Source: a bacterium
GTDB taxonomy: Bacteria > Patescibacteriota > Minisyncoccia > UBA6257 > 02-FULL-45-10c
Assembly: GCA_030700025.1 (NCBI GenBank)
Contig: JAUYKI010000015.1
Span: forward strand, 28,623 to 92,622
Direction: 5' to 3'
DNA: 64,000 nt
The notes under the pieces were generated by a model. It was not told the DNA's origin. It ran no database searches and saw nothing but the letters and a program-made list of their open reading frames with translations. Every line of letters starts with the position of its first letter. Position 1 is the first letter of the stretch. The position numbers and the translations under genes were made by a program. Shown piece by piece: positions 17,727 to 59,796 of this stretch.

Positions 17727-17849
17727 AATTTTAATTAACCTAATTACTCTAATTAACCTAATGAATGTCTAATTTCTAATGACTAAAATTTAGGCATTGG
17801 TCATTGGGATTTGATTAAAATAATTAGAAATTAGGTTAATTAGAATAAT
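17727..17849. promoter_or_regulatory. AT-rich intergenic region with three copies of a 13-mer (TAATTAACCTAAT twice direct at 17732 and 17750, once inverted at 17830) and many CTAAT repeats
   Basis: Read directly. The region lies upstream of the 16017..17726 gene start. It resembles regulator binding sites but no specific site is recognised. Confidence 0.3.
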
Positions 17850-18719
17850 TTAATTTGCTTGTTTTCTAGCTAATATTAGCATATTATCCCCCAAATAAAG
17901 CTTCAGAGCAAAGGTGCCCAGCGCGGGAAATCGTTCTAAAAATAACGTAATCCACCGCCAAATAAAAATTCGTTGATACCGATAAAGAAAATTGAATATA
18001 TACTGCAAAGAAAAGGTCTTATGAATAGTCCGTATTTCTAAAATATCAAATTTATTATTCTCTAAAAATAATTTAATATTGCGATTATTAAAATAACTGA
18101 TATGTTCCGGCGGCAGCCAGGTATGCCACTTTGTTCCGAAAATCCTTGCCCACCAGCTAGCGGTATTAACCGTAATAATCGCCAAAGTGCCGTTAGCCGC
18201 CAGAAGCTTACGGATCGCTCCGGCATTATCAGCCAACTTATCTTGGGGAAGGTGTTCAAAAAAATCAAAGGCGGTAATAACGTCAAAAGACTCCGGCGAA
18301 AAACTGGCGCTTAGCAAATCACCCTGGGTTATTTTTCTCCCGCGAAAGCGCCCCTCTTCTACTGAAGAAGCGTTTAAATCTATTCCTTCAGCTAAATAAC
18401 CGCTCCGGGCAGCAACGTCTAAAAAATAACCGTTGGCAGTGCCAAGATCCAGCAATCGCCGGCCCAAATTATGCGATTGAATTTTTTTTAATAAATTTGT
18501 ATATACCGAAAACATCGGGGCCTTGTCGGCTTCATAATCCACATATCCCCGCCCCTCATTATCGTGAAGGTAAATCGGATTATTATAATAATCCGCTAAA
18601 TTAATATGGGCGGTGTCCACAAAAATAAACCCGCAATTCGGACATTTAAAAAATAAAAAAATCTCTTTACTGAACGAGGCAGGGCAATTTTGGTTTCCGC
18701 AAATGGAACAGGTTTTCAT
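17850..18719 (-). CDS. Class I SAM-dependent methyltransferase with an N-terminal Cys4 zinc ribbon
   Basis: CSICGNQNC...CPNCG, then LLDLGTANGYF and a DV.T motif. Confidence 0.65.
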   Translation of the reverse strand: MKTCSICGNQNCPASFSKEIFLFFKCPNCGFIFVDTAHINLADYYNNPIYLHDNEGRGYVDYEADKAPMFSVYTNLLKKIQSHNLGRRLLDLGTANGYFLDVAARSGYLAEGIDLNASSVEEGRFRGRKITQGDLLSASFSPESFDVITAFDFFEHLPQDKLADNAGAIRKLLAANGTLAIITVNTASWWARIFGTKWHTWLPPEHISYFNNRNIKLFLENNKFDILEIRTIHKTFSLQYIFNFLYRYQRIFIWRWITLFLERFPALGTFALKLYLGDNMLILARKQAN

Positions 18720-18727
18720 ATGAAGCC

Positions 18728-19852
18728 TTAGTCAGCGGTCTGAATAATTTTTATAAATGCCGCGGCAGAATTCCGAATATCATACCGCTTCACCCAATCC
18801 AATAATAAAATTTTCATTAATGCCAGATCGGATGGTTTTTTATATAATAATGCTTTAACTTTATCAGCAAATTGCCCCGTATCGCCAACTCGCGCCAAAT
18901 AACTATGCATTGGCTCCGGCGTTATCTCCCGAACCCCGCCGATATCGCTCGCCACAAATGGAACTGCGGCCGCCATAGATTCCAATAGAACATGCGGAAA
19001 GCCCTCTTCATCAGACGGCATTATAAACAAATCGGCAGCCGCATAATAATAAGGCAGCTGATTATTCGGCACCCAGCCTAAAAATCGAACTTTATCCAAC
19101 AGTTTGTAATTTGTGATTTGTGATTTAATGCTTTCTCGTTCTGGGCCATCGCCAATTACCACCAATACCGCATTTTCGTCTTGAAGGGCCTTTAATATTT
19201 CAGGCAAATAATGCGCTCCTTTACGTTGGGATAAACGATGAACAAAAAGCAAAACTTTGGCGTCTTCCGGAATTTTTAATTCTTGTTTTATTTCTCCAAT
19301 TTTGATTTTTGATTTTTGATTTTTGATTTTTTCTATATCTACCCAGTTAGGCATGACTTTAATTTTATTCTCGCGAATAGCATAATGCGCGGCATACTCT
19401 TTTTTTAAGCTTTCCGTTCCGGTAACTAGAAAATCGATAAATCGATACGCCAATCTCTCTAATTGATTTCTTAAAAAATTCTTCCGGTAAAGCCACGGCA
19501 AGCCGCAATTCCAATAAAAAACTTTTCCTCCCAAAATCCCGCTGATTAACGACGCGTTAAAAGCGGCGACGAAAGAATAGTGGATATAAAAATTTTGGCA
19601 GCCGGACATCCGCGCCTTCGCCAAAAGAATAAGATTTTCCAGCCAGCGTAACGGGAGAAAATGGAATTTTTGAATAAACTTTTTAAACCCCGCCGAGTCC
19701 CCCTTCCCCCTTTCCGCAATCAAAAAAATATCGGCGCTTTGAGCTAGCAAATCCAACATCTTATATATTGAATAAAAGTGAGTTGCCGTTTCCAGGTTAT
19801 ATTCCGGCACAACAAAGCAAATTTTCAGTTTTTCCATATGGCTAGCGGGCAT
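18728..19852 (-). CDS. GT4 family (GT-B) glycosyltransferase
   Basis: The C-terminal domain has the ...FIMPS.EEGFP...ESMA... (E-x7-E) region. The gene contains two heptanucleotide arrays. Confidence 0.75.
   Translation of the reverse strand: MPASHMEKLKICFVVPEYNLETATHFYSIYKMLDLLAQSADIFLIAERGKGDSAGFKKFIQKFHFLPLRWLENLILLAKARMSGCQNFYIHYSFVAAFNASLISGILGGKVFYWNCGLPWLYRKNFLRNQLERLAYRFIDFLVTGTESLKKEYAAHYAIRENKIKVMPNWVDIEKIKNQKSKIKIGEIKQELKIPEDAKVLLFVHRLSQRKGAHYLPEILKALQDENAVLVVIGDGPERESIKSQITNYKLLDKVRFLGWVPNNQLPYYYAAADLFIMPSDEEGFPHVLLESMAAAVPFVASDIGGVREITPEPMHSYLARVGDTGQFADKVKALLYKKPSDLALMKILLLDWVKRYDIRNSAAAFIKIIQTAD
19103..19126. repeat. Heptanucleotide tandem array (TTTGTRA)x3 inside the GT4 coding sequence, encoding KSQITNYKL
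   Basis: Read directly; translation confirmed in frame. Confidence 0.85.
19301..19328. repeat. Heptanucleotide tandem array (TTTGATT)x4 inside the GT4 coding sequence, encoding KIKNQKSKIKI
   Basis: Read directly; translation confirmed in frame. Confidence 0.9.
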
Positions 19853-30723: not shown

Positions 30724-31929
30724 TTATTTTACCATCTTTACGGCACCAGCCGATTCTAGGCAATCCCTGTATTGTTTCCAATATTCTTCCTGCTTAGGCC
30801 AATTTTGCAATAACCTTAAAGCATTCTGTTTAAATTCCTCTCTTTTAAAAGAGTTTTCTTTCGATTCTAAAATCGCCTTGGCGAGCGCCCGCTCATCGCC
30901 CACCGGAACCACCCAGCCATCCAAATCATCAATCAATAATTCTCCCGCCAAACCAACGTCCGTCATAACTACGGGCAAGCCCGCCGCCATCGCCTCCACA
31001 ATCGTCCGTCCGTAACCTTCATAATTAGAAGTCAGTAAAAAAATATCAGCTGTTTTATAATAAGAAGCCAGATCATCAGTCCAGGGCTCAAGAATAATAT
31101 TATTTTGTAATTTGTAATTTGTAATTTGTAATTTAAGCGCTTCGTGTTTTGGTCCATTGCCCACTATTACCAATAGTGATTTAGGGTATTTCTCCGCCAC
31201 CTCCCGCATGGCCTCAATTCCCAAGCCAATATTTTTTTCTTGAGTCAGCCGGGAAGCCATCAAAATAATAAAATCGCGATCGGAATATTTTTGGCGCAAA
31301 TCTATTTTTATTTTAGCTGTTTGAATTTTTTTAACATCAACTAAAATCGGCAATACCGATATGGGGCGTAAGGTATGGGGTTTAGGATATAGGGCTAATA
31401 ATGATTGCTTGATTCGCTCACTAACAACCCGGATGCCGTCCGCGCGGGGAAGTAAAAATTTAGCCAGCCAAACCCGCAGTTTATTTTTGAAAGATTCACT
31501 ATAAAAATAAGGGCTGAAAATATCGGCGTGTATTTGCAGCTGCAAAGACAAATTGAATTTCTTTTTCAAACACCAGCCGACTAATCCCGTTTCAAAAGGA
31601 TCCTGCGCGCTTATAGCGCAATTTCTAATTTCTAATTCCCAATTTCTAATGATATTTTTCCCGATTTTATACGCGTCCCAAAAATACAATATCCGGAAGC
31701 GCGTATTGGTGGGATAAGTAAAAACATTCTCGCTAATTTGTAATTTAAAATTTATTTGTGATTTGTCCTGCCTGCCGATAAGCATGGGATTTGTGATTTG
31801 TGATTTTCGTGTTGCAAACACGATTATGTGCAGTTCTTCAAAAAGCGGGCCGTAATTGCCAATCCTTTTCCTGGCTTCAGACTTTTCATCCAATATTTGT
31901 TTATCGGTAGAGAACATTAAAACTTTCAT
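30724..31929 (-). CDS. GT4 family glycosyltransferase
   Basis: ...IFLLTSNYEGYGRTIVEAMAAGLPVV... region. Contains three heptanucleotide arrays. The start was moved to MKVLMF (ATGA overlap with the upstream gene). Confidence 0.75.
   Translation of the reverse strand: MKVLMFSTDKQILDEKSEARKRIGNYGPLFEELHIIVFATRKSQITNPMLIGRQDKSQINFKLQISENVFTYPTNTRFRILYFWDAYKIGKNIIRNWELEIRNCAISAQDPFETGLVGWCLKKKFNLSLQLQIHADIFSPYFYSESFKNKLRVWLAKFLLPRADGIRVVSERIKQSLLALYPKPHTLRPISVLPILVDVKKIQTAKIKIDLRQKYSDRDFIILMASRLTQEKNIGLGIEAMREVAEKYPKSLLVIVGNGPKHEALKLQITNYKLQNNIILEPWTDDLASYYKTADIFLLTSNYEGYGRTIVEAMAAGLPVVMTDVGLAGELLIDDLDGWVVPVGDERALAKAILESKENSFKREEFKQNALRLLQNWPKQEEYWKQYRDCLESAGAVKMVK
31104..31134. repeat. Heptanucleotide tandem array (TTTGTAA)x4 within the coding sequence, encoding KLQITNYKLQ
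   Basis: Read directly; translation confirmed. Confidence 0.9.
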
Positions 31930-33080
31930 AGATTTTTCCATATCTCTATATATCCATTAATCATCATATTGTGGGTATAAGCCATTTCTTTTTTTCGCGC
32001 TAATTCTCCCAAACGCTGGCGCAACGATTCATCAGAAATAATATCAATAAGCGTCCGCCTTAACGCGTTATAGTCATTATACGGAACCAAAAGTCCGGTT
32101 TGACCGTGAATTACAATTTCAGGATTACCGCCAACGTCCGTAGTAACTACCGGCAATCCTAAGGCCTGAGCTTCCCGTATCTGATGCGAAAGTCCTTCGT
32201 AGCCGGTATTAAGAACAAATACATCGGACGCTTTCAAATATTTTATCAATTCATTTTTAGGCAACGAACCCATTAATACCGCATTCTTTTCAATTCTGAG
32301 CTTATTAATTAAACTCTCTAAATTTGCCCGTTCCGGCCCATCGCCGATAATAAACAAATGTAAATCGGAAAATTTATTCTTTAAATCAGCCACAATTTTT
32401 ATTAACATATCAAAACCCTTCCATGGCACCAAGCGGCCGACCGAAACCAAAATAGTTCCTTGTAATCCTAAAATTCCCCTTTCCAAATCTTTGCCGCTGG
32501 TGGAAATCATCGGGGAAACCGCATTTAAGATAACGTTTATCTTTTCTGGCGCCACTCCCCAACGAACCACTATTTTTTTTAAATATTCGCTGGGAACAAT
32601 TACCAAATCCGAACCATCGGCTACCCAGCTCCGAATCCACTTCAATCCCTCCACCACCCAATGATATTTTTTCTTGGTATCCTGAAAGTCATCAATAGAA
32701 TCCTGAACTCTAAACCGCTGCGCTCCCTGTTCCCAGGCGTAATCACCGACTGCTTTTAAGATAAACTTCCGATGCAAGAATTTATTCGCTAAAAATGCTG
32801 GCAAGCCCGCGCTAACCGGATCTTGGGCAAAAATAATATCCGCTTTCCGCCCCAGCTGCCACACTTTTAAAAAATAAATAAAGTGTCGTAATCCCTTGGG
32901 AATGTGGCGGGAAACCCTGCGAATATTAGACGGGTCGCCTTTTTGAGATTCTCCATAAGAAAGCGCGATTACTTTAAAACCCCGCTTCGGCAATTCTTCC
33001 AAAAGCAATTTAGTAAAAGTTGCCGGCCCTCCGATATCCGGCGGAAAAATTCCTGTAGCGATTAAAATTGTTCTGGCCAT
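31926..33080 (-). CDS. GT4 family glycosyltransferase
   Basis: ...VFVLNTGYEGLSHQIREAQALGLPVV... region. Confidence 0.75.
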   Translation of the reverse strand: MARTILIATGIFPPDIGGPATFTKLLLEELPKRGFKVIALSYGESQKGDPSNIRRVSRHIPKGLRHFIYFLKVWQLGRKADIIFAQDPVSAGLPAFLANKFLHRKFILKAVGDYAWEQGAQRFRVQDSIDDFQDTKKKYHWVVEGLKWIRSWVADGSDLVIVPSEYLKKIVVRWGVAPEKINVILNAVSPMISTSGKDLERGILGLQGTILVSVGRLVPWKGFDMLIKIVADLKNKFSDLHLFIIGDGPERANLESLINKLRIEKNAVLMGSLPKNELIKYLKASDVFVLNTGYEGLSHQIREAQALGLPVVTTDVGGNPEIVIHGQTGLLVPYNDYNALRRTLIDIISDESLRQRLGELARKKEMAYTHNMMINGYIEIWKNL

Positions 33081-34300: not shown

Positions 34301-35428
34301 ATGAATACCAAGATAAAAGTTCTCTACGCCATAACCAAAACCGACCTGGGCGGCGCCCAGAAGTACGTTTCCGATTTAGCGGCTAATTTAGACCGCCAAC
34401 GGTTTGAGGCTAAAATAATATATGGCGGCCAAGACTTAAGATGGCTTTCCAACCGAGTCTGGCCATGGGCTTTATTTCTAAATGATTGGCTGGCGATTTT
34501 AGAATTGCGAAAATTCTACAAAAAAGAACAGCCCCAAATTGTCCACCTTAATAGTTCTAAGGCGGGAATTATCGGTTCCTTAGCGGCTATTTTAATTTCG
34601 CCGCGCCCCAAAATTATTTTTACCGCCCATGGATGGGTATTTAATCCTACCAACGCCCTGTCATTGGCCGTTCGCTGGTTTTATATCTTATTGCATAAAA
34701 TTGCGGCATTCTTCCAAGATCATATTATCTGCGTTTCAGAATACGATCATCAATTAGCGCTGCGCTATCATATCGCGCCTCCAAAAAAAATTACCACTAT
34801 TCACAATGGCATTGATTCCGGATTAAAGTTTTTGGATAAAGAAAGCGCCAAACGGGACATTATTAAAATAATTCCAAATTCTAAATTCCAGATTCTAGAT
34901 TCTAAATTGCCCTGGATTGGCTCCATCGGCCGGTTAGTCAAAGAAAAAAATTATGAAACCCTGATTGAAGCCGCCGCGATAATACCCAATGCTTGCTTTT
35001 TTATTATCGGGAGCGGATCAGAACAACGTAATTTAGAATCCCGAATTAAAAATTTAAAACTAGAAAAGCGGTTTTTCTTGCTTAACCCATCGGGCAATGA
35101 TGCCCAATATTTAAAAGCTTTCGATATTTTTGCCATGTCCTCCATCAAAGAGGGGTTGCCCTATATCCTCATGGAAGCGATGCTGGCAGAACGCCCCATA
35201 ATTATTACGGAGGCGGGCGGCATGCCGGAGATGATCAAAAACCACGAAAATGGATTAATGGTGGCCCAAAAAAATCCTAAAATGCTCGCTCAAGCAATAA
35301 GCGGATTATTAGAAAATCCGGCCATCGCCCAATCTTTAAGCCAAACGGGCAAAAAAGTGGTTCGGGATAAATTTAGTTTGCAAAAAATGATTTTCGAAAC
35401 AAAACAGGTATATCAAAACCTGCTATAA
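34301..35428 (+). CDS. GT4 family glycosyltransferase
   Basis: ...IFAMSSIKEGLPYILMEAMLAERPII... region. Contains a heptanucleotide array. Confidence 0.75.
   Translation: MNTKIKVLYAITKTDLGGAQKYVSDLAANLDRQRFEAKIIYGGQDLRWLSNRVWPWALFLNDWLAILELRKFYKKEQPQIVHLNSSKAGIIGSLAAILISPRPKIIFTAHGWVFNPTNALSLAVRWFYILLHKIAAFFQDHIICVSEYDHQLALRYHIAPPKKITTIHNGIDSGLKFLDKESAKRDIIKIIPNSKFQILDSKLPWIGSIGRLVKEKNYETLIEAAAIIPNACFFIIGSGSEQRNLESRIKNLKLEKRFFLLNPSGNDAQYLKAFDIFAMSSIKEGLPYILMEAMLAERPIIITEAGGMPEMIKNHENGLMVAQKNPKMLAQAISGLLENPAIAQSLSQTGKKVVRDKFSLQKMIFETKQVYQNLL
34873..34907. repeat. Degenerate heptanucleotide tandem array (CYARATT)x5 within the coding sequence, encoding PNSKFQILDSKL
   Basis: Read directly; translation confirmed. 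Confidence 0.85.
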
Positions 35429-41997: not shown

Positions 41998-42165
41998 AAT
42001 TTATATTTTATCACAGATTTTCGTATATTCGTAATTTTTTCGTATTTCGTAGCTATTTAAATATTCGAATGGGCGCATTTGTAACGCGCTTTCGCATGCA
42101 ACCAAAAGCCCCGCAAAGCGGGGCTTATTGGCCTCATCCCTAAATTATCTCAAGTAATTTAGAAA

Positions 42166-53609: not shown

Positions 53610-54863
53610 TTAATTAGACGACTTTAATATAAAGTATAACACATCCGATAATTTTTCAGTATCTTTTTTACTCGTTCCCCGGCCGAAAGTAATCCGCAAT
53701 CCGGCGCTGGCCCGCTGGTCCGAATAGCCCAAAGCTTTTAAAACATGCGATGGCTTGCAAATCCGGGCGGCGCAAGCCGCGCCCGGGGAAACCGCGAATC
53801 CTGCCAAATCCAGCTTGATAATTAAATCCTGGGCCGTTTCTTGGCCGGGAAAATATAAATTAACATTATTCGGCAAACGCCTTTCTAAATCCCCGTTTAA
53901 TTCTGCTTTGGGCAAAATAGTTTTAATCCGGTTCAAAAAATATTTTTGTAAATCCCTTAATCGCTTGGCTTCTTTGGCCCGATCCCTATCGGCAATTTCC
54001 ATAGCCTTGGCAAAGCCAATAATGCCGGGAACATTCTCTGTTCCTCCGCGCAATCCCGATTCCTGTCCGCCGCCGGTAATCAGCGGTTGTACCGCTGAAA
54101 AATCCGAAATTCGAATATCGAAATTCGAAATGTTTTGAGTTTTAGATTTTGAATTTTGAATTTGTTTGTGATTTGTGATTTGGAATTTGGAATTTTTCCT
54201 GACATAGAGAAGCCCAACTCCTTTGGGCCCGTAAATTTTTTGAGAAGATAAAGTCATTAAATCTACTCCCAGCCGCTGAACATTGCAATCTAAATAATTA
54301 AATGCCTGGGCCGCGTCAGTATGAAAAAGCGGATATCCGCCGTTAGCCGCCTTGTTTTTCTTGAATTCCGAAATTATTTTGCTGATTTCCAGAATCGGCT
54401 GGATTGTTCCGACTTCATTATTGGCATACATTATGGAAACTAAAATAGTCCGGTCGTCCAAAGCAATTCGGAATTTTTTTAAATCCACAATTCCCTTTTT
54501 ATCTACCGGCAAATAAACCACTTCCACGCCATCCCTCTCCAGCTCTAAACAAGTTTCTAAAATTGATTCGTGTTCCACCGCGGAGATAATAATTTTCGGA
54601 CGGCTGATATTTTTAACCGCGCCCCGCAACGCCAAATTATTCGCCTCGGTCGCTCCGGAAGTAAAAACTATTTCTTTATAATGGCATCCTAAAATCTCCG
54701 CGGCCTTCTGGCGGGCATTAAATACCGCCGCCGACGCTTCCTGGCCAAACCAATGCAAAGCCCCGGGATTGCCGTAGATTTTTCTAAAATACGGCCGCAT
54801 GGCTTTCTCCGCCCGCGGATCCACGGGTGTCGCCGCCGCGTAATCAAAGTAATGTCTGCGCAT
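53610..54863 (-). CDS. Cysteine desulfurase (IscS/NifS family, class V aminotransferase) carrying an inserted low-complexity loop of about 33 aa
   Basis: SSQKIYGPKGVGLLYVRK (PLP-lysine region) and AVSPGAACAARICKPSHVLKALG (catalytic Cys loop). The insert between YVRK and GGGQE is encoded entirely by a heptamer array. Confidence 0.8.
   Translation of the reverse strand: MRRHYFDYAAATPVDPRAEKAMRPYFRKIYGNPGALHWFGQEASAAVFNARQKAAEILGCHYKEIVFTSGATEANNLALRGAVKNISRPKIIISAVEHESILETCLELERDGVEVVYLPVDKKGIVDLKKFRIALDDRTILVSIMYANNEVGTIQPILEISKIISEFKKNKAANGGYPLFHTDAAQAFNYLDCNVQRLGVDLMTLSSQKIYGPKGVGLLYVRKNSKFQITNHKQIQNSKSKTQNISNFDIRISDFSAVQPLITGGGQESGLRGGTENVPGIIGFAKAMEIADRDRAKEAKRLRDLQKYFLNRIKTILPKAELNGDLERRLPNNVNLYFPGQETAQDLIIKLDLAGFAVSPGAACAARICKPSHVLKALGYSDQRASAGLRITFGRGTSKKDTEKLSDVLYFILKSSN
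54097..54201. repeat. Array of about 15 phased heptanucleotide units (sub-families TCGAAAT, RTTTTGA, TGTGATT, TGGAATT), 105 nt in total, encoding a 35-aa insertion in the cysteine desulfurase
   Basis: Units parsed directly. The 7-nt phase is kept across all sub-families. The translation is KNSKFQITNHKQIQNSKSKTQNISNFDIRISDFS. Confidence 0.85.
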
Positions 54864-54867
54864 AATT

Positions 54868-55929
54868 TTATTGTAACTCATTCAATTGTTTTTGGATTTT
54901 ATATCCTTGGCAATGTTTTAACAAGCCCAAATAAGATTGTAAATTTTTGCCATTAATTTTTCTCAATAACCTTCTTTTTGTCTTAGTTCTTAAAATTCTA
55001 TAGTGGGGTCTTGCGATATATCCTAAAAAATCAATTCCTTGGGAAAATTTCCGAATAATTATCTTATTCGGATGTAGGGTTAAATTTAAATTATCCGCTA
55101 AAAACTTGCTTACTTTATCTGTAATTCCTATAAAATTCTCTTTTGTATCGCTTAAAACAACAAAGTCGTCGCAATAACGGAGATAATGTTTAATTTTTAA
55201 TTTATGCTTAATAAATTGGTCCAATTCATTTAAATAGATGTTGGCAAAAAGCTGGCTGGTTACGTTGCCAAGTGGCAATCCTTTGTCCGGATTTTTTTCA
55301 AAACTTTTTATAACTTTTTCAATAAGCCAAATGTCTTTTGGGTCAAAAATTTTCTTTTTGATTAAATTCAATAAAATTTGCTGGTCAATAGAATCAAAAA
55401 ACTTACTGATATCGCACTTTAAAACAAAAACCGGCTTGCAGTAATTCTTGCTCAATTTCCGAAGAAAAATTCCTAACCGTTCTACCGCGATATGCGTCCC
55501 CTTGCCCAGCCGCGATGAATCAGAATCGTAAATAAAACCCTTATCAAAAATCACGTATAAAATCCGAAAAATTGCTTGGTGCAAGACCCGGTCTCGGACG
55601 CTGGCTTTATGAATATGCCGCAATTTCGGGTCTTGAACATAAAAAGCTGTGTATAAATCAGGTTTGTAAATTTTATCCTTTAATTCCTGATGAAGTTGAA
55701 ATAAATTGTCTTCCAGATTAAACTCAAATTGCTGAACGTCCGATTTTTTCCTTTTTCCGCGCCGGAATTCTTTCCACGCTAAAAATAAATTTTCCAGCGA
55801 AATTATCCGTTCAAAAATATTATGACTTTTAATACCCCCCCCCCTCCAAATTTGCCTCTGATTCATAAGCTTGATGAATTCTATCGCAATATCTATCTGC
55901 TCGGCAAGCAAATTCCGAAACGGGATCAT
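54868..55929 (-). CDS. Diversity-generating retroelement (DGR) reverse transcriptase
   Basis: RT motifs 1–7 are present. These include DISKFFDSID and the DGR-type motif 4 GLPLGNVTSQLFANIYL (I/LGxxxSQ where other RTs have QGxxxSP). Also present are YLRYCDDFVV (YxDD) and LHPNKIIIRKFSQGIDFLGY. Similarity is closest to Bordetella phage bRT as recalled from memory. The true start is probably internal (about 55866) or near the G10 tract. Confidence 0.9.
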   Translation of the reverse strand: MIPFRNLLAEQIDIAIEFIKLMNQRQIWRGGGIKSHNIFERIISLENLFLAWKEFRRGKRKKSDVQQFEFNLEDNLFQLHQELKDKIYKPDLYTAFYVQDPKLRHIHKASVRDRVLHQAIFRILYVIFDKGFIYDSDSSRLGKGTHIAVERLGIFLRKLSKNYCKPVFVLKCDISKFFDSIDQQILLNLIKKKIFDPKDIWLIEKVIKSFEKNPDKGLPLGNVTSQLFANIYLNELDQFIKHKLKIKHYLRYCDDFVVLSDTKENFIGITDKVSKFLADNLNLTLHPNKIIIRKFSQGIDFLGYIARPHYRILRTKTKRRLLRKINGKNLQSYLGLLKHCQGYKIQKQLNELQ

Positions 55930-56181
55930 TTTGGAATTTTTTTGAAAATTGAAAATGTTTTACTAGATGTTCTCGAATTGATTATTACTGCTTCCCTAGA
56001 AACTAAAATTAATAAAATTTCGCCGTTGAATTCTGCTCGGATTAAAATAGAAATCCTAAAACGGCTGATTAGATTGATACAGGAATTTAAAATCATTGAA
56101 GCGAATAAATATCTTACGTTAGAAAAAGACCTTCAAGAAATTTCCAAAATGATCAACGGCTGGATTAAATACTTAAAATAA
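55822..56181 (+). CDS. DGR accessory variability determinant (Avd-like four-helix-bundle protein)
   Basis: 119 aa. LIHKLDEFYRNIYLLGKQIPKRDHFGIFLKIENVLLDVLELIITA aligns with Bordetella bAvd LIVERYERVISYLYPIAQSIPRKHGVAREMFLKCLLGQVELFIVA. The C-terminal EISKMINGWIKYLK aligns with EVGRILGSWIARV. The bAvd sequence is recalled from memory. The ORF is on the opposite strand to the RT and target. Confidence 0.65.
   Translation: MTFNTPPPPNLPLIHKLDEFYRNIYLLGKQIPKRDHFGIFLKIENVLLDVLELIITASLETKINKISPLNSARIKIEILKRLIRLIQEFKIIEANKYLTLEKDLQEISKMINGWIKYLK
55836..55845. repeat. Homopolymeric C10 (G10 on the RT strand) tract in the region shared by the 5' ends of the RT and Avd ORFs
   Basis: Counted directly. 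It encodes PPPP in Avd and RGGG in the RT ORF. Confidence 0.9.
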
Positions 56182-56204
56182 ATAACTCCGATTAAGGAGT
56201 TATT
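56181..56204. other. 9-bp stem hairpin (aataactcc-GATTAA-ggagttatt) between the Avd stop and the TR
   Basis: Read directly. Confidence 0.4.
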
Positions 56205-56208
56205 TATA

Positions 56209-56336
56209 GAAACTTCTGCGCGAGTCCGCAAATTACCATTGGCGTTGTCCGGATTGTACCAGTTGACCTTGAGCTTGCGATTGATCGGATTCCAATTCAC
56301 GTTCGGCACGTTGCCATTAGGATTGCGCGAACCAGC
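56209..56336 (-). other. DGR template repeat (TR), 128 nt, coding-sense on the minus strand
   Basis: Co-oriented near-identical copy of the VR. All 24 TR/VR differences sit at TR adenines. In the target frame it encodes AGSRNPNGNVPNVNWNPINRKLKVNWYNPDNANGNLRTRAEVS, with 13 AAY codons. Confidence 0.85.
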
Positions 56337-56553
56337 TTTTGCTTGTCTCCTGCTATATCACCGATAATCTTATAACAAAATTATCTGAGTTTTCCGGACA
56401 CACCGGATTTATTTTTGTAGCATTCACCAACGGCGAAACCTACACCAAAAACAAGCAAGCAGTTTCTGTTATTTGTGGTAAATCACTATCCGCCGTAGGC
56501 GGACTGATTATATTAACCGTAATTAGAATAAATCAATTTTGACCAAAAGAAAA

Positions 56554-56580
56554 TCCCCAGTCGCCTTTGGCGACTGGGGA
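56554..56580 (-). terminator. 12-bp GC-rich hairpin (tccccagtcgcc-TTT-ggcgactgggga) followed by a T-run on the minus strand, about 30 nt after the target stop
   Basis: Read directly. It could be the target-gene terminator, the DGR structure downstream of the VR, or both. Confidence 0.6.
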
Positions 56581-56609
56581 TTAAGGGTTCAAGTCAAAAG
56601 ATTCAAGGG

Positions 56610-57347
56610 TTAAACAGAAACTACTGCGCGAGCCCGCAAATCACCACTGGCGCTGCCCGGACCGTACCAGCCGACCCCGAGCCAGCGACCGATCGGACCC
56701 CAATCCACGCACGGCACGCTGCCATCAGGATAGCGCGAACCAGCGCAAAGTGTCCAATTCTTTTCATCCAGGTGTTTATTAGTTTCCAGGAAATACTTGA
56801 GTTCCAGGAGCAGACGCTCTTCCAGGGCGATGCCATTGATTTGCTCTTTGGCCAAGTCATTGGCTGACTTGTTCTTGAGCTCTTCGTCGGCTTCCTGGCG
56901 GTCTCTGACCCAGATGGCGTAGGTTTCGCCGGTGTTTCGGACCGAAGTGATGGAATTGAGATTGTTCGTGCAGGTCCAAACGCTCATGTGTTTCCTTAGG
57001 ACTTGGACAATCTGATTGAGGGTCAATCCCTTGGCAACGACAATCAACCAATCAATGCCCGGAACACGCTTTGGGGGCTGGATTTTTGAGATATCCAGCT
57101 CAATGCCAAATTCCTGGCGGTAGAGGGTTTGCCAGGCGCGAAGCATTGCTCGCACACTCTGGCCGGGTCGGGTCTGCTTTTCTTTGATGACAGAAGCTGT
57201 TGCTTCCGCGAAATTCGGATTCTCCTTAATTCGCTGAAGCGCCCCGGACACCTGATCCGGATCGCGCTTGCCATCCCGCACCAGCTCCAGCACCGTAGTC
57301 ACCAAATCCAGCAGCCGCGCTTTCTTTCGTTCGGTTCTTGCGAACAT
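56610..57347 (-). CDS. DGR target (variable) protein. The N-terminal region is uncharacterised. The C-terminal region ends in the VR and may be C-type-lectin/FGE-like.
   Basis: The C-terminus is ...NWTLCAGSRYPDGSVPCVDWGPIGRWLGVGWYGPGSASGDLRARAVVSV. The start was set at ATG 57347 (MFARTERKK), preceded by AAGGAG. The gene is markedly GC-richer than the neighbouring RT and Avd. Confidence 0.8.
   Translation of the reverse strand: MFARTERKKARLLDLVTTVLELVRDGKRDPDQVSGALQRIKENPNFAEATASVIKEKQTRPGQSVRAMLRAWQTLYRQEFGIELDISKIQPPKRVPGIDWLIVVAKGLTLNQIVQVLRKHMSVWTCTNNLNSITSVRNTGETYAIWVRDRQEADEELKNKSANDLAKEQINGIALEERLLLELKYFLETNKHLDEKNWTLCAGSRYPDGSVPCVDWGPIGRWLGVGWYGPGSASGDLRARAVVSV
56617..56744 (-). other. 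DGR variable repeat (VR) forming the last 43 codons of the target gene
   Basis: 104 of 128 positions are identical to the TR. All 24 mismatches are at TR adenines (A to G/T/C in the coding sense). It ends 5 nt before the stop. Confidence 0.85.
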
Positions 57348-57426
57348 TTTTGTTCTCCTTAGTTCTTTCACATCTGTCCAAATCCGGTTATCGCGGATTG
57401 GTATCTGATTTTGAAAGAACGTTCCT

Positions 57427-58211: not shown

Positions 58212-58778
58212 ATGGATAAATTAGTCTTAGACATAGAAACTAAAAATACTTTTGCCGAAGTCGGCGGGCAAGAAAACATCCACAAATTGGAGGTATCTTT
58301 TGTCGGCGTTTATTCTTACAACCAAAACCAATATTTTTCTTTTTTTGAAAATGAATTGGATAAGCTGGGCCCAATGCTCCAAAGCGCCGGCTTAATAATC
58401 GGATTCTGTTCTAACCGCTTTGACCTGCCGGTTTTAAAAAAACATTACAAATTTAATATCATGTCTCTGGAAAGCCTGGATATTTTGGAAGAAATTGAGG
58501 AAAGGCTCGGCCACCGGATCAGCCTAAACGAATTGGCCTACGCCAATTTGAGAACCCAAAAAACCGCCCACGGATTGGAAGCGATTAAATTTTATAAAGA
58601 AGGCCGGCTGGAAGAATTAAAAAAATATTGCCTGAACGACGTAAAAATCACCAAAGACCTTTATGACCTGGGAATGTCCCAGGGTCACTTAGTCGTTCCC
58701 CAAAGAACTACCGGCGAAATGCAAAAAGTGGAATTTGACTGGCATACCCGATTGCCTTCGGCGTCTACCCTATTTTAA
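58212..58778 (+). CDS. Predicted 3'-5' exonuclease (RNase-H-like / DEDD-type, YprB/PolB-exo-like)
   Basis: N-terminal LVLDIETKNTF (Exo I-like DxE), with later acidic motifs. Confidence 0.4.
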   Translation: MDKLVLDIETKNTFAEVGGQENIHKLEVSFVGVYSYNQNQYFSFFENELDKLGPMLQSAGLIIGFCSNRFDLPVLKKHYKFNIMSLESLDILEEIEERLGHRISLNELAYANLRTQKTAHGLEAIKFYKEGRLEELKKYCLNDVKITKDLYDLGMSQGHLVVPQRTTGEMQKVEFDWHTRLPSASTLF

Positions 58779-59796
58779 AACGCTTTATCCGTTTTAGCTC
58801 CTGATTCAGGAGTTTTTTATTTTTCGCTTCTATATTGATTCTTAAAAGCGGTTCGGTATTGGAAGCTCTAATATTAAACCAGTGGTCCGGAAACTCTGCC
58901 GTTAAGCCATCTAACTTAGAAATTTTCGCTTTTTGTTTTTTATAATATTGTTCTACTCTTTCCAAACTTTTAACTTTTAACTTTTCGCTTTTAACTTTAA
59001 GGTTGATTTCCCCGCTCCGGTAATACTTCGGCGATTTGTCCAGATATTCAGAAACTGGAATGTTTAATTTAGAAACAAAATTTATAATATGAATTGCCGC
59101 TAAAATACCCGAGTCCCAGACCGTGTCTGGTCCGCCTCTGGCGGAAAAATCTGGAAATCCAAAATAATAATGGCCGGAATGTTCCAGGCCCAGCGGAATC
59201 TTTTTCTCCCGCATCAGCTTTTTGAAAAAATAATGGCCGACGCGTGAAACGCTAACTTTTGACTTATAACCATTAACTATTAACTTTCTAATAAGTTGAC
59301 CGGAGATAACGCTGACGATATAAGATTTTGGCTTTAGCTCTTGCAGTAATAAATAACCGGTTTCGTCCGGACTGATTACTCTGCCCAAATTGTCTACCAA
59401 AAACATTCTGTCGCCGTCGGCGTCAAAAATCACGCCCAAGTCCGCGTGGTGTTTTAATACGGCTTTTTGTAGTTGGCTAATCGCTCCCGGCGCCAGCGGA
59501 TTCGGCCCATGCCCGGGAAAATGACCGTCGGGTTTATCGTTGATAAAAACAATTGACAATTGACAATTAACAATTAACTTCCGGAAAAGTTCTTTTAGAA
59601 CTTTTCCGGTTGTGCCGTTGGAACAATCAAAAACTATTTTTAACGGCTTGCCCTGAGCCTGCTTGCCCCGCTGTGGCGGTGGTCGAAGGAGTCTTAAAAA
59701 TCGTTTTAAATACTTAACGTATAAACCCGCGTAATCCATATGATTATTATACAGAAAATAAAAAACTCCGCGCATTACGGAGTTAGGCATAGCCAC
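58765..59796 (-). CDS. Phosphohexomutase (phosphomannomutase/phosphoglucomutase) C-terminal fragment, domains II–IV
   Basis: FDCSNGTTG, FDADGDR (Mg2+ loop), GLEHSGHYYF (sugar-binding loop) and RASNTEP (phosphate-binding loop). Its likely independent start is MDYAGLYVKYLK at about 59738, preceded by TATAAT. Contains three heptamer arrays. Confidence 0.7.
   Translation of the reverse strand: MAMPNSVMRGVFYFLYNNHMDYAGLYVKYLKRFLRLLRPPPQRGKQAQGKPLKIVFDCSNGTTGKVLKELFRKLIVNCQLSIVFINDKPDGHFPGHGPNPLAPGAISQLQKAVLKHHADLGVIFDADGDRMFLVDNLGRVISPDETGYLLLQELKPKSYIVSVISGQLIRKLIVNGYKSKVSVSRVGHYFFKKLMREKKIPLGLEHSGHYYFGFPDFSARGGPDTVWDSGILAAIHIINFVSKLNIPVSEYLDKSPKYYRSGEINLKVKSEKLKVKSLERVEQYYKKQKAKISKLDGLTAEFPDHWFNIRASNTEPLLRINIEAKNKKLLNQELKRIKRFKIG
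58965..58999. repeat. Heptanucleotide tandem array (AACTTTT)x3 plus 2 degenerate units in the phosphohexomutase coding sequence, encoding KVKSEKLKVKS
   Basis: Read directly; translation confirmed. Confidence 0.85.
59551..59578. repeat. Heptanucleotide tandem array (AATTGAC)x2(AATTAAC)x2 in the phosphohexomutase coding sequence, encoding VNCQLSIVF
   Basis: Read directly; translation confirmed. A further phased stretch lies at 59251–59292. Confidence 0.85.
59761..59784 (-). terminator. Hairpin (aactccg-TAATGCG-cggagtt) plus T-run on the minus strand, directly after the small ORF stop
   Basis: 7-bp stem followed by TTTTTTATTTT on the minus strand. Confidence 0.5.

What the first reader, a model, noticed from the sequence alone, without database searches (positions are those of the whole stretch)
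54097..54201. A 105-nt array of 15 phased heptamers encodes a 35-aa insertion in an IscS/NifS-type cysteine desulfurase
In E. coli IscS, about 10 residues separate the ...GIGALYVRR block from GGGHERG (recalled from memory). Here 43 residues intervene (KNSKFQITNHKQIQNSKSKTQNISNFDIRISDFSAVQPLIT). The extra portion of about 33–35 aa is exactly the part encoded by 15 consecutive 7-nt units (TCGAAAT x4, RTTTTGA x4, TGTGATT x2, TGGAATT x2, and others). The phase is kept across sub-families.

Fifteen is a multiple of three, so the insertion is in frame. A housekeeping enzyme tolerating a repeat-generated surface loop argues that these arrays are an active expansion process and not ancient sequence.
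Basis: partly seen in the sequence, partly recalled or inferred. Interest (0 to 1): 0.75.

Follow-up and report, generated by a model that had tools for sequence, protein, structure and literature searches.

The report
Heptad hairpin repeat inserted in IscS
The 7-base-phased stretch inside this cysteine desulfurase gene is real, but it is an in-frame, partly decayed copy of a hairpin-type repeat found scattered through many uncultivated bacteria, apparently translated as a floppy loop of about 31 residues, much as palindromic elements sit inside Rickettsia genes.

Summary
Window 54097-54201 parses only at period 7, and it lies in an intact IscS/NifS-type gene at a spot where solved structures and the closest syntenic orthologue have nothing.

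Two details need correcting. The net insert is 31 aa (93 nt), not 35 aa (105 nt). So the "15 x 7 is divisible by 3" argument is a coincidence.

The array is not a private slippage product:
- Its 3' part, including an exact 26-mer, recurs in more than 120 metagenome contigs (GC 33-65%), one of them from a Desulfobacteraceae MAG. Most of these copies are intergenic.
- The full form is a ~130-nt A/C-rich then G/T-rich hairpin built from heptads (C-G/T-A-A plus 3 free bases).
- About 10 copies carry a PF05635 (23S-rRNA-IVS/Avd-like) gene between the arms.
- Parcubacterial IscS orthologues carry homologous inserts at the same loop, and at a second loop. These are patchy on the tree and 93-98% identical in nucleotides over 40 nt, while synonymous sites elsewhere in the gene are saturated.
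- A UvrD gene carries the element in the same frame.

AlphaFold models the insert as disordered.

Best reading: an RPE-like, IVS-like selfish repeat tolerated in a permissive loop, whose heptad units keep turning over.

The parts
53610..54881 (-). Host gene: type I (IscS/NifS-like) cysteine desulfurase, 423 aa, intact
   Evidence: ORF. Pfam PF00266, E = 9.5e-67. PDB IscS/NFS1 hits at E about 1e-90 to 1e-77. AF2 mean pLDDT 88.6. Foldseek TMt 0.89-0.96 to NFS1/IscS/NifS. K215, C370, H104, D189 and Q192 are invariant in 78 homologues.
54097..54198 (-). Element copy as delimited by its degraded terminal inverted repeat (GAAAAATCCGAAATTCGAA / TTGGAATTTGGAATTTTTC). It contains the heptad array.
   Evidence: Inverted repeat I2 is 19 nt and 84% complementary. 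Heptad parse. The nhmmer family profile hits 54101-54150, E = 3.4e-7.
54093..54185 (-). Net extra coding length relative to the insert-less syntenic orthologue: residues F233-A263, 31 aa, 93 nt. Placement is ambiguous by a few codons.
   Evidence: MAFFT alignment with L083, L081 and L084. HMMER break 234|264 against 4eb5/4r5f. pLDDT below 50 for 235-259.
54105..54130 (-). Canonical 3'-arm module TTTCGAATTTCGATATTCGAATTTCG. This is the family signature. It also forms a small local hairpin (54103-54129).
   Evidence: Single match in the window with up to 3 mismatches allowed. Exact match in more than 120 metagenome contigs and in orthologues L081 and L084. Local hairpin.
54132..54166 (-). Central A-rich part (coding strand AAACAAATTCAAAATTCAAAATCTAAAACTCAAAAC), shared almost base for base with orthologue L081
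54167..54194 (-). 5' arm rewritten by local units (coding strand AATTCCA x2, AATCACA x2). It no longer pairs with the 3' arm.
   Evidence: The window copy has 0 long-range pairs and z = -1.6, whereas orthologous copies keep 24-31 pairs.

Best explanation
The array is an in-frame, partly decayed copy of a dispersed 'heptad hairpin' repeat family.

**The family (shown).**
- The full element is about 120-140 nt. An A/C-rich arm is made of 7-nt units (C-G/T-A-A plus 3 free bases, e.g. CGAAGCA, CGAAATC, CGAAACA, CAAATGA). It is followed by a mirror G/T-rich arm that ends in ...TTTCGAATTTCGATATTCGAATTTCG(G/A)ATTT.
- It behaves like a selfish, IVS-/MITE-like repeat. Most copies are intergenic. Some carry a PF05635 (S23p/Avd-like four-helix-bundle) gene between the arms. 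A minority sit inside genes.

**This copy (shown).**
- In this Parcubacteria-type genome a copy sits in the loop between the beta-strand ...GLLYVR and the PLITGGGQE motif of IscS.
- The reading frame is kept and there are no stop codons.

**Inferred.**
- The copy is translated as a low-complexity, disordered loop of about 31 aa that the enzyme tolerates.
- The 7-nt phase is inherited from the element's architecture.
- Individual units then expand, contract and homogenise by slippage or conversion. Selection passes only net lengths divisible by 3.
- The element is mobile.
- Nucleotide identity is kept by recent spread or by conversion from sister copies.
For: A profile built from 129 copies hits the window only at 54101-54150.
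2. **Heptad architecture.** In 41 full copies the invariant columns recur every 7 nt. All fold as long imperfect hairpins with 24-48 long-range pairs. Median z is -3.6, and 31 of 41 have z below -3.
3. **Same element at other sites.**
   - A second IscS loop in L081 and L207.
   - A UvrD helicase, in the same orientation and frame.
   - AMP-binding/NRPS, sigma-70-like and DUF2298 genes.
   - Intergenic copies in the same genomes. L207 has 4 copies in 7.4 kb.
4. **Patchy distribution at the IscS loop**. Of 121 homologues, 53 have no insert, 31 carry this family (17 distinct versions), 8 carry two other families, and 29 carry other inserts. The closest syntenic relative (76% identity by BLASTP; 82% over aligned columns) has none.
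5. **Nucleotide identity.** The last 40 nt of the insert are 37-39/40 identical between window, L081 and L084. In the rest of the gene, third codon positions at identical residues are only 43-51% identical.
6. **Cross-phylum presence.** Host loci span GC 0.33-0.65. Contig L138 is the Desulfobacteraceae MAG contig, with an S1 protein 100% identical.
7. **PF05635 gene between the arms** in about 10 loci and in orthologue genome L206. Three loci have the 26-mer as a perfect inverted repeat.
8. **Tolerated loop.** pLDDT is below 50 and there is no secondary structure for 235-259, inside a confident fold. Catalytic residues are invariant.
9. **Frame.** All six orthologous segments read as DNA are multiples of 3 and open.
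Against: - No transposase, target-site duplication or empty/filled pair from near-identical strains was found. Mobility is therefore inferred from distribution only.
- The arms show no copy-specific covariation. A copy's 5' half pairs as well with other copies' 3' halves as with its own: mean score 11.6 against 11.3, p = 0.17. RNAalifold finds only the small terminal hairpin, with no compensatory pair. The 'hairpin' may therefore be a by-product of mirrored heptads.
- The window holds only this one canonical copy. Its other heptamer arrays are not significantly similar to the family profile.
- The strong nucleotide conservation could instead reflect a function.
- The census was seeded with one exact 26-mer and is therefore biased.
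Confidence: 0.7

Rival explanations
1. De novo local expansion: replication slippage of 7-nt units created the array in place, with no outside source.
For: - Units of the same kind are adjacent, and the phase is unbroken.
- Lineage-specific homogenised units show that slippage or conversion does act on these arrays.
- Period-7 arrays are 10-20 times enriched in this lineage.
- Some arrays in the GT4 genes replace native sequence without changing its length.
Against: - The 3' 40 nt are nearly identical to orthologues and to more than 120 unrelated contigs, including a Desulfobacteraceae contig.
- The same composite order (CGAAGCA.. / CGAAAC / AAATTCAAAA / AAAC / GTTTCGAATTTCGATATTCG) recurs at other loci and in other genes. 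Independent slippage would not rebuild it.
Confidence: 0.07
2. Functional cis-element. The nucleotide sequence, especially the 3' module, is kept by selection because it acts in the DNA or the mRNA. Candidate roles are an RNase III or protein-binding site, a translational pause or regulatory hairpin, or an internal start signal. The peptide would be a by-product.
For: - Conservation is at the nucleotide level, beyond what the protein requires.
- In intergenic copies the T-rich arm ends 10-20 nt before a start codon in 32 of 120 cases. For 5-30 nt the figure is 42%, against 21% at random positions.
- Both intergenic copies in L207 end just before an ATG.
- Most orthologous in-gene copies keep 24-31 long-range pairs.
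Against: - The closest relative and 53 of 121 homologues do without the insert.
- The window copy has lost its arm pairing: z = -0.9 to -1.6 and 0 long-range pairs.
- There is no sigma-70-like site in the array.
- There is no covariation.
- There is no Rfam family.
Confidence: 0.15
3. Adaptive protein loop. The ~31-aa Lys/Asn/Gln/Ser-rich loop was recruited for a protein-level role, for example partner binding in a reduced Fe-S/thiolation network, and is conserved as a peptide.
For: - The peptide motif NSKHEARNxKQI...VSNFDIRISD recurs in the same frame at two IscS loops and in UvrD.
- The reading frame is always open.
Against: - The insert is predicted disordered.
- It is patchy on the tree, and other repeat families replace it at the same loop.
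- The peptide conservation follows from nucleotide identity that includes the third positions.
- The same 'peptide' is what spurious ORF calls over intergenic copies give. All 115 profile hits are 36-84-aa hypothetical proteins.
Confidence: 0.07
4. Assembly or binning artefact (a chimeric join through a repeat).
For: Repeats can mis-join metagenomic contigs.
Against: - The ORF is continuous and full length.
- The insert site is the same in independent assemblies from NCBI, JGI and ENA.
- Both flanks are collinear with the orthologues.
Confidence: 0.01

Closest known systems
Rickettsia palindromic elements (RPE)
   Same: Both are short dispersed palindromic repeats found in intergenic DNA and inserted in frame into unrelated housekeeping genes. 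Both add a peptide segment that is compatible with fold and function (PMC10969869, read). Here the host genes are IscS (two loops), UvrD and others.
   Different: - Different host phyla (Patescibacteria, Desulfobacterota) and no sequence relation was tested.
- This family has a strict 7-nt internal phasing.
- Intergenic copies carry about 1.5 stop codons per frame, so there is no built-in ORF.
- Some copies carry a PF05635 gene.
- Units turn over within copies.
23S rRNA intervening sequences (IVS) with an S23p ORF (Coxiella, Leptospira)
   Same: The architecture matches: complementary termini forming a stem, with an optional PF05635/S23p four-helix-bundle gene in the loop. IVS are regarded as selfish and horizontally acquired (PMC4990558). 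Here about 10 copies have exactly this layout.
   Different: - The copies seen here are between or inside protein-coding genes. One sits inside a group-I-intron-like insertion of 23S rRNA. None is in helix 25 or 45.
- RNase III excision cannot apply to an in-frame mRNA copy.
- Heptad phasing is not described for IVS. That statement rests on my own knowledge, not on a test.
MITEs / REP-type repeats
   Same: Small size, terminal inverted repeats, many copies, mostly intergenic, and occasional in-frame gene fusions.
   Different: No target-site duplication was found. No parent IS or transposase, and no RAYT, was seen in the loci. The only recurrent cargo is PF05635, which is not a known transposase.
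Simple-sequence contingency loci (hepta- or tetranucleotide repeats causing phase variation)
   Same: Tandem units whose length is not divisible by 3, lying inside genes. Unit number changes between lineages.
   Different: - The IscS array is imperfect, with at most 2 identical adjacent units.
- Lengths differ between orthologues by multiples of 3, so the frame is kept rather than switched.
- The perfect 4.4-4.6-copy arrays in the window's GT4 genes fit this class better.
Tandem repeats creating disordered regions in Borg elements (from memory, not checked here)
   Same: Nucleotide-level repeats inside ORFs that add intrinsically disordered segments.
   Different: As I recall, those repeats are perfect tandem repeats with unit lengths divisible by 3 in ORFs, and they are not dispersed hairpins.

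Membership tests
Type I cysteine desulfurase (IscS/NifS, Pfam Aminotran_5) | Whole-protein match to PF00266 above the curated cut-off | tested here: met
   226 bits against a cut-off of 21.5, covering 1-371 of 371 profile positions.
Type I cysteine desulfurase (IscS/NifS, Pfam Aminotran_5) | PLP-binding lysine and catalytic cysteine loop present | tested here: met
   K215 (SSQKIYGPKG) and C370 (SPGAACAA) are invariant in 78 aligned homologues, as are H104, D189 and Q192.
Type I cysteine desulfurase (IscS/NifS, Pfam Aminotran_5) | Fold superposes on solved IscS/NFS1/NifS structures | tested here: met
   Foldseek E about 1e-41, TMt 0.89-0.96, rmsd 1.5-2.2 A. The model has pLDDT 88.6.
RPE-like in-frame palindromic repeat | Member of a multi-copy dispersed repeat family | tested here: met
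   More than 120 contigs carry the exact 26-mer. L207 has four copies in 7.4 kb.
RPE-like in-frame palindromic repeat | Inserted in frame in several unrelated protein-coding genes | tested here: met
   IscS sites 2 and 3, UvrD, AMP-binding, sigma-70-like and DUF2298 genes.
RPE-like in-frame palindromic repeat | Palindromic (arms can pair) | tested here: inconclusive
   The family meets this: median z is -3.6. The window copy does not: 0 long-range pairs. Pairing is generic and not copy-specific.
RPE-like in-frame palindromic repeat | Insertion lies at the protein surface and spares function | tested here: inconclusive
   The insert is predicted disordered (pLDDT below 50) within a confident fold. 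Solvent exposure and enzyme activity were not measured.
RPE-like in-frame palindromic repeat | Sequence homology to one of the described RPE families | not tested
The host phyla differ, so I claim only 'works like', not membership.
23S rRNA IVS element | Located in helix 25 or 45 of 23S rRNA | tested here: not met
   The window copy is in a protein-coding gene. The PF05635-carrying copies lie between protein-coding genes. L169 is inside an intron-like insertion near LSU model position 2643.
23S rRNA IVS element | Complementary termini enclosing an optional S23p/PF05635 ORF | tested here: met
   About 10 loci. PF05635 E = 5e-11 to 3e-13. L117, L130 and L196 have the 26-mer as perfect inverted repeats.
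23S rRNA IVS element | Excised from the transcript by RNase III | not testable with these tools
MITE | Terminal inverted repeats and small size | tested here: met
MITE | Target-site duplication | tested here: inconclusive
   30 of 41 copies share no 4-mer or longer between their 10-nt flanks. Element ends are fuzzy.
MITE | Cognate autonomous element with a transposase | tested here: not met
   PF05635 was the only recurrent cargo found between or beside the arms. No systematic transposase scan of all loci was run.
Phase-variable simple-sequence repeat | Near-perfect tandem tract whose unit-number change shifts the frame | tested here: not met
   The tract is imperfect. Orthologous lengths differ by multiples of 3 and are all open.

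The most novel reading that the evidence does not exclude
The heptad hairpin together with its PF05635 (S23p/Avd-like) gene is a previously unrecognised kind of mobile element. The pentameric, nucleic-acid-binding four-helix-bundle protein would recognise the 7-nt-phased arms and promote copying. This might happen with a host or DGR-type reverse transcriptase, or by fold-back or template-switch synthesis that lays down units 7 nt at a time.

This would explain the cross-phylum identity, the mirrored arms that lack covariation, the classical rRNA IVS, and the in-frame copies in CPR housekeeping genes as outcomes of one system.
Probability: 0.12. Interest if true: 0.85.

Novelty: new variant of a known kind. 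Interest (0 to 1): 0.6.

Why it matters
- **Protein length in CPR genomes.** Part of the puzzling length variation and low-complexity 'insertions' in proteins of CPR/Patescibacteria comes from a definable repeat family and not from random drift. The same holds for a large class of 40-80-aa 'hypothetical proteins' in metagenome annotations, which are spurious calls over intergenic copies.
- **Parallel to Rickettsia.** It extends the Rickettsia RPE phenomenon, selfish DNA living inside essential genes, to another group of reduced-genome bacteria.
- **Link to IVS and PF05635.** It ties the phenomenon to the long-unexplained 23S rRNA IVS/S23p (PF05635) elements, whose mobility mechanism is unknown.
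- **Evidence of recent exchange.** The exact 26-nt identity between Parcubacteria and a Desulfobacteraceae contig points to recent exchange between very different bacteria sharing sediment and groundwater habitats.
- **Annotation.** A profile of this family could be used to mask such copies and to flag in-frame insertions.

Tried and rejected
- **Rfam.** No family matches the window or 20 element-bearing loci, even at E up to 1.
- **RNAalifold.** On a MAFFT alignment of 41 copies it finds only the small terminal hairpin, with no compensatory pairs.
- **Arm covariation.** A test for copy-specific covariation was negative: self 11.6 against cross 11.3. I therefore do not claim a selected RNA structure.
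- **Folding of the window copy.** Not significant, with z = -0.9 as RNA and -1.5 as DNA.
- **Family profile on the window's other arrays.** The other heptamer arrays are not significant hits. At E up to 50 there are 44 weak hits against 9-16 in shuffles. Their kinship to the family rests only on motif resemblance and on homologue P0393.
- **GTDB genome scan with the IscS protein.** I could not scan named genomes for the 26-mer.
- **Peptide-profile search.** It returned only short spurious ORFs and no long host proteins. A first attempt failed on the 40-aa minimum.
- **Cluster look-up of ten of those ORFs.** It gave no organism names.
- **Other collections.** No copies in IMG/VR, INPHARED phages or PLSDB plasmids. 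BLAST's low-complexity filter may hide some.
- **Target-site duplication.** No signal.
- **Promoter.** No sigma-70-like site in the array.
- **Literature.** No paper in the searched library contains the element's sequence strings. None describes a heptad-phased PF05635 element.
- **Exact-protein look-up of the window's IscS.** Not on record.
Full report
**1. What is at the coordinates**

Window 54097-54201 reads as 15 consecutive 7-mers on the + strand: GAAAAAT CCGAAAT TCGAATA TCGAAAT TCGAAAT GTTTTGA GTTTTAG ATTTTGA ATTTTGA ATTTGTT TGTGATT TGTGATT TGGAATT TGGAATT TTTCCTG.

- Self-match at lag 7 is 0.653, against 0.45 at lags 6 and 8.
- No lag between 4 and 15 reached more than 0.522 in 20,000 shuffles.
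- TRF reports period-7 arrays here.

The stretch lies in ORF 53610-54881 on the minus strand. The ORF encodes a 423-aa protein that matches Pfam Aminotran_5 end to end. It also matches solved IscS/NFS1/NifS structures at E = 1e-90 to 1e-77.

**2. The insert is real but smaller than stated**

- The HMMER alignment to A. fulgidus IscS breaks at query 234|264, which is chain 218|217. About 30 residues have no counterpart.
- The closest homologue found is P0001 on locus L083. It is 76% identical overall (82% over aligned columns) and syntenic: PGM, RNase H-like, IscS. At this spot it reads ...LLYISKKAKIAPIITGGGQE.
- Against L083 the window has 31 extra residues, F233-A263, or 93 nt.
- Ninety-three is not a multiple of 7. 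The two outer 'units' are weak. Orthologous inserts add 87 and 90 nt against L083. In all six orthologues read as DNA the variable segment is 111-123 nt, always divisible by 3. What keeps the frame is selection on net length.
- AlphaFold2, run with 78 homologues, gives a confident fold (mean pLDDT 88.6, pTM 0.88). Residues 235-259 are the exception, with pLDDT below 50 and no secondary structure.
- Foldseek superposes the model on NFS1, IscS and NifS with a target-normalised TM-score (TMt) of 0.89-0.96.
- The PLP lysine K215, the catalytic C370, and H104, D189 and Q192 are invariant among homologues.

The enzyme looks functional, and the insert looks like a disordered loop. That it lies on the surface is inferred, not measured.

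**3. The array is not private to this gene**

I compared the DNA of orthologues that carry a similar peptide at this loop: L081 (GCA_020724845.1, syntenic) and L084 (Hainich groundwater).

- They share the composite ...AAACAAATTCAAAATTCAAAATCT..CAAAAC(A/G)TTTCGAATTTCGATATTCGAATTTCG(G/A)ATTT with the window.
- Over the last 40 nt the three are 37-39/40 identical.
- In the rest of the gene, nucleotide identity is 60-65%. Third codon positions at identical amino acids are only 43-51% identical, which means saturated.

The exact 26-mer TTTCGAATTTCGATATTCGAATTTCG occurs once in the window. Some contigs have two copies.

**4. Anatomy of the family**

- The typical copy is 120-140 nt.
  - The A/C-rich arm reads AAATCCGAAGCACGAAATCCGAAATCCGAAACAAATTCAAATGACCAAAATTCAAAAC.
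  - A short variable centre follows.
  - The G/T-rich arm reads GTTTTGAATTTTGGTCATTTGAATTTG, followed by the 26-mer and then (G/A)ATTT.
- In an alignment of 41 full copies the invariant columns recur every 7 nt. They are C at positions 6, 13, 20 and 27, and AA at 8-9, 15-16, 22-23 and 29-30, with mirrored TT in the other arm. The unit is C-G/T-A-A plus three free bases.
- Every copy folds as a long imperfect hairpin with 24-48 long-range pairs. Median z against dinucleotide shuffles is -3.6, and 31 of 41 have z below -3. The structure is 4-bp CGAA:TTCG helices separated by 3x3 internal loops.
- The pairing is generic, however. A copy's 5' half pairs no better with its own 3' half than with those of other copies: 11.6 against 11.3, p = 0.17. 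RNAalifold finds no compensatory pair. I therefore describe mirrored heptad arms, and I do not claim a selected RNA structure.
- No Rfam family matches.

**5. Where copies sit**

- Of 120 non-redundant copies, 109 are not spanned by a long open frame.
- In 32 of them an ORF start lies 10-20 nt beyond the T-rich arm. For 5-30 nt the figure is 42%, against 21% at random positions.
- Eleven copies are inside long ORFs. Cases looked at:
  - A UvrD-type helicase (L105) with ...SRNSKHEIRNPKQIPITKIQNSKPVSNFDIRISNFP..., in the same orientation and frame as in IscS.
  - An AMP-binding/NRPS gene and a sigma-70-like gene, both in reverse orientation.
  - A DUF2298 membrane protein.
- Within IscS itself, L081 and L207 carry a second copy at another loop, after ...IRNFR. 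L081 carries a different heptad-phased palindrome (IMNKELRIKGEKRNSIIHDSKFII) at a third loop.
- L207 (Liptonbacteria-labelled) has four copies in 7.4 kb. Two are intergenic and end just before start codons, and two are inside IscS.
- Intergenic copies carry about 1.5 stop codons per frame, so the element has no built-in reading frame.

**6. A gene in the loop**

- In about 10 loci the two arms flank a ~120-aa gene (...GANYIEANEALSKKDF...ELMKIFSAIMRKSQ*). It matches Pfam PF05635, the 23S rRNA-intervening-sequence protein, at E = 5e-11 to 3e-13.
- In L117, L130 and L196 the 26-mer is present on both sides in inverted orientation.
- In L206, a genome whose IscS carries the insert, a PF05635 gene is likewise flanked by both arms.
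- This is the layout of the classical 23S rRNA IVS of Coxiella and Leptospira: a terminal stem with an S23p ORF in the loop, regarded as selfish and horizontally acquired (PMC4990558). Here, however, the copies lie between protein-coding genes.
- One copy (L169) lies within a LAGLIDADG intron-like insertion of a 23S rRNA gene.

**7. Who carries it**

- IscS homologues with this insert are labelled Wolfe-, Colwell- and Liptonbacteria.
- Host loci of the 26-mer span GC 0.33-0.65. The high-GC loci encode FadB-like, xanthine-dehydrogenase-like and other proteins untypical of CPR.
- Contig L138 (GC 0.60) carries a full copy. Its ribosomal protein S1 is 100% identical to that of an NCBI MAG named Desulfobacteraceae bacterium, on a contig of the same length.
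- A spurious ORF over another copy is labelled Kapabacteria.
- The family therefore crosses phyla with stretches of exact identity.
- No copies were found in IMG/VR, INPHARED or PLSDB.

**8. History at the IscS loop**

Among 121 homologues the segment between ...LY and P.ITGGGQ ranges from 8 to 43 residues:

| Insert class at the loop | Number of homologues |
|---|---|
| No insert | 53 |
| This family (17 distinct versions) | 31 |
| Two other families | 4 each |
| Other inserts | 29 |

- On a rough neighbour-joining tree the carriers are scattered. The window groups with an insert-less sequence and with a sequence carrying another family.
- The loop is therefore either a hot spot for repeated gain, or an old insert has been lost many times.
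- All six site-3 copies read as DNA have period 7, with lag-7 match 0.59-0.64. Each has its own homogenised 3'-arm unit:

| Locus | 3'-arm unit |
|---|---|
| window, L081, L084 | TTCGAAT / TTCGATA |
| L206 | TTCGGAT x4 |
| L207 | TTCAAAT x3 |
| L205 | TTGGGAT x4 |

- In the window the 5' arm has been rewritten to AATTCCA x2 and AATCACA x2 and no longer pairs. It has 0 long-range pairs, against 24-31 in the orthologous in-gene copies.

**9. Interpretation**

- **Best supported (about 0.7).** A selfish, RPE-like and IVS-like repeat was inserted or retained in a permissive loop of IscS and is translated as a disordered segment. Heptad units slip and homogenise under a divisible-by-3 filter.
- **Shown.** Family membership, the heptad architecture, multiple insertion sites and host genes, patchiness, nucleotide identity beyond coding constraint, the PF05635 association, and the intact enzyme.
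- **Inferred.** Mobility (no transposase, target duplication or strain-level empty/filled pair was seen), translation, and neutrality.
- **Rivals.**
  - A functional cis-element (0.15). It is supported by the nucleotide conservation and the start-codon proximity. It is weakened by dispensability and by the decayed pairing here.
  - An adaptive protein loop (0.07).
  - Pure local slippage (0.07).
  - An artefact (0.01).

**10. Comparison with the known**

- It works like the Rickettsia palindromic elements (in-frame selfish palindromes in housekeeping genes; PMC10969869).
- It is built like an rRNA IVS with its S23p gene.
- It fails the defining location of an IVS.
- It lacks the transposase and target duplication of a MITE.
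- No sequence comparison with RPEs was possible.
- I found no paper in the searched library that contains the element's sequence or describes a heptad-phased PF05635 element. That library is incomplete.
- I therefore rate it a new variant of a known kind.

**11. Caveats**

- The census was seeded with one exact 26-mer.
- The tree is a quick NJ tree.
- MAG labels depend on binning.
- Surface exposure and translation are predictions.
- Kinship of the window's other heptamer arrays to this family is suggestive only.

Noticed in passing
window 54868-57371: A complete diversity-generating retroelement lies next to IscS. It has an RT at 54868-55929(-), a bAvd-like gene at 55822-56181(+), a template repeat at 56208-56336 and a variable repeat at 56616-56744. 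The variable repeat is at the 3' end of target ORF 56610-57371(-). All 24 differences are template A changed to G or T in the variable repeat. The cassette is absent from the syntenic loci L081 and L083.
   Followed up: partly
window 19300-19331, 31104-31134, 34870-34908: Three GT4 glycosyltransferase genes contain perfect or near-perfect heptamer tracts: TTTTGAT x4.6 at 100%, TTTGTAA x4.4 at 100%, and AATTCTA x5.6 at 84%. A change of one unit would shift the frame. They are candidate phase-variable (contingency) loci for surface glycans.
   Followed up: no
window 30724-31941 (GT4 gene): Arrays at aa 45-53 and 63-70 bracket a 15-aa insert that is absent from more than 70% of 60 homologues. Homologue P0393 has ...TRKHEARNPKF... 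at the same place. The array at aa 269-281 (KLQITNYKLQNN) replaces a native helix without changing its length, and homologues read LKLQTTNYKLQ or LKLQVTNCKLQ.
   Followed up: partly
window 58765-59796 (PGM domains II-IV): Two of its three heptamer arrays coincide with 7-8-aa insertions relative to L083. The phosphoglucomutase is split into a domain-I gene and a domain II-IV gene in syntenic relatives L081 and L205. L083 also has a separate domain II-IV gene, whereas L207 has all four domains in one ORF. The window's own domain-I gene was not checked.
   Followed up: partly
window 17727-17850 and 42000-42070: Two intergenic stretches look like degenerate relatives of the hairpin family. One is a ~120-nt palindrome containing AATGACTAAAAT / ATTGGTCATTGGGATTTG. 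The other is a solo arm, GATTTTCGTATATTCGTAATTTTTTCGTATTTCG. Neither is significant by the nhmmer profile.
   Followed up: partly
L169 1-1939: A 23S rRNA gene is interrupted after ...CGCGAGCTGGGT (Rfam LSU model position 2643 of 2925) by an insertion of about 1.65 kb that encodes a LAGLIDADG-type protein. A full copy of the heptad hairpin sits inside that insertion at 1241-1381.
   Followed up: partly
L081 10280-10350; P0002, P0086, P0101 at the IscS loop: A second hairpin family is also phased at 7 nt: GAATTAA x2 ... ATTCATG ATTCAAA ATTCATA, giving the peptide IMNNELRI...IIHNS.F.IH. It occupies different IscS loops in different genomes. A third family (GLGFRVKGLENQ...NPSTLY) occupies the same loop in others.
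   Followed up: partly
P0121-P0235: 115 database 'hypothetical proteins' of 36-84 aa (e.g. MFLNSKHEARNSKQIQM...FVSDFDIRISDL) are translations of intergenic copies of this repeat. They are likely spurious gene calls in public annotations.
   Followed up: partly
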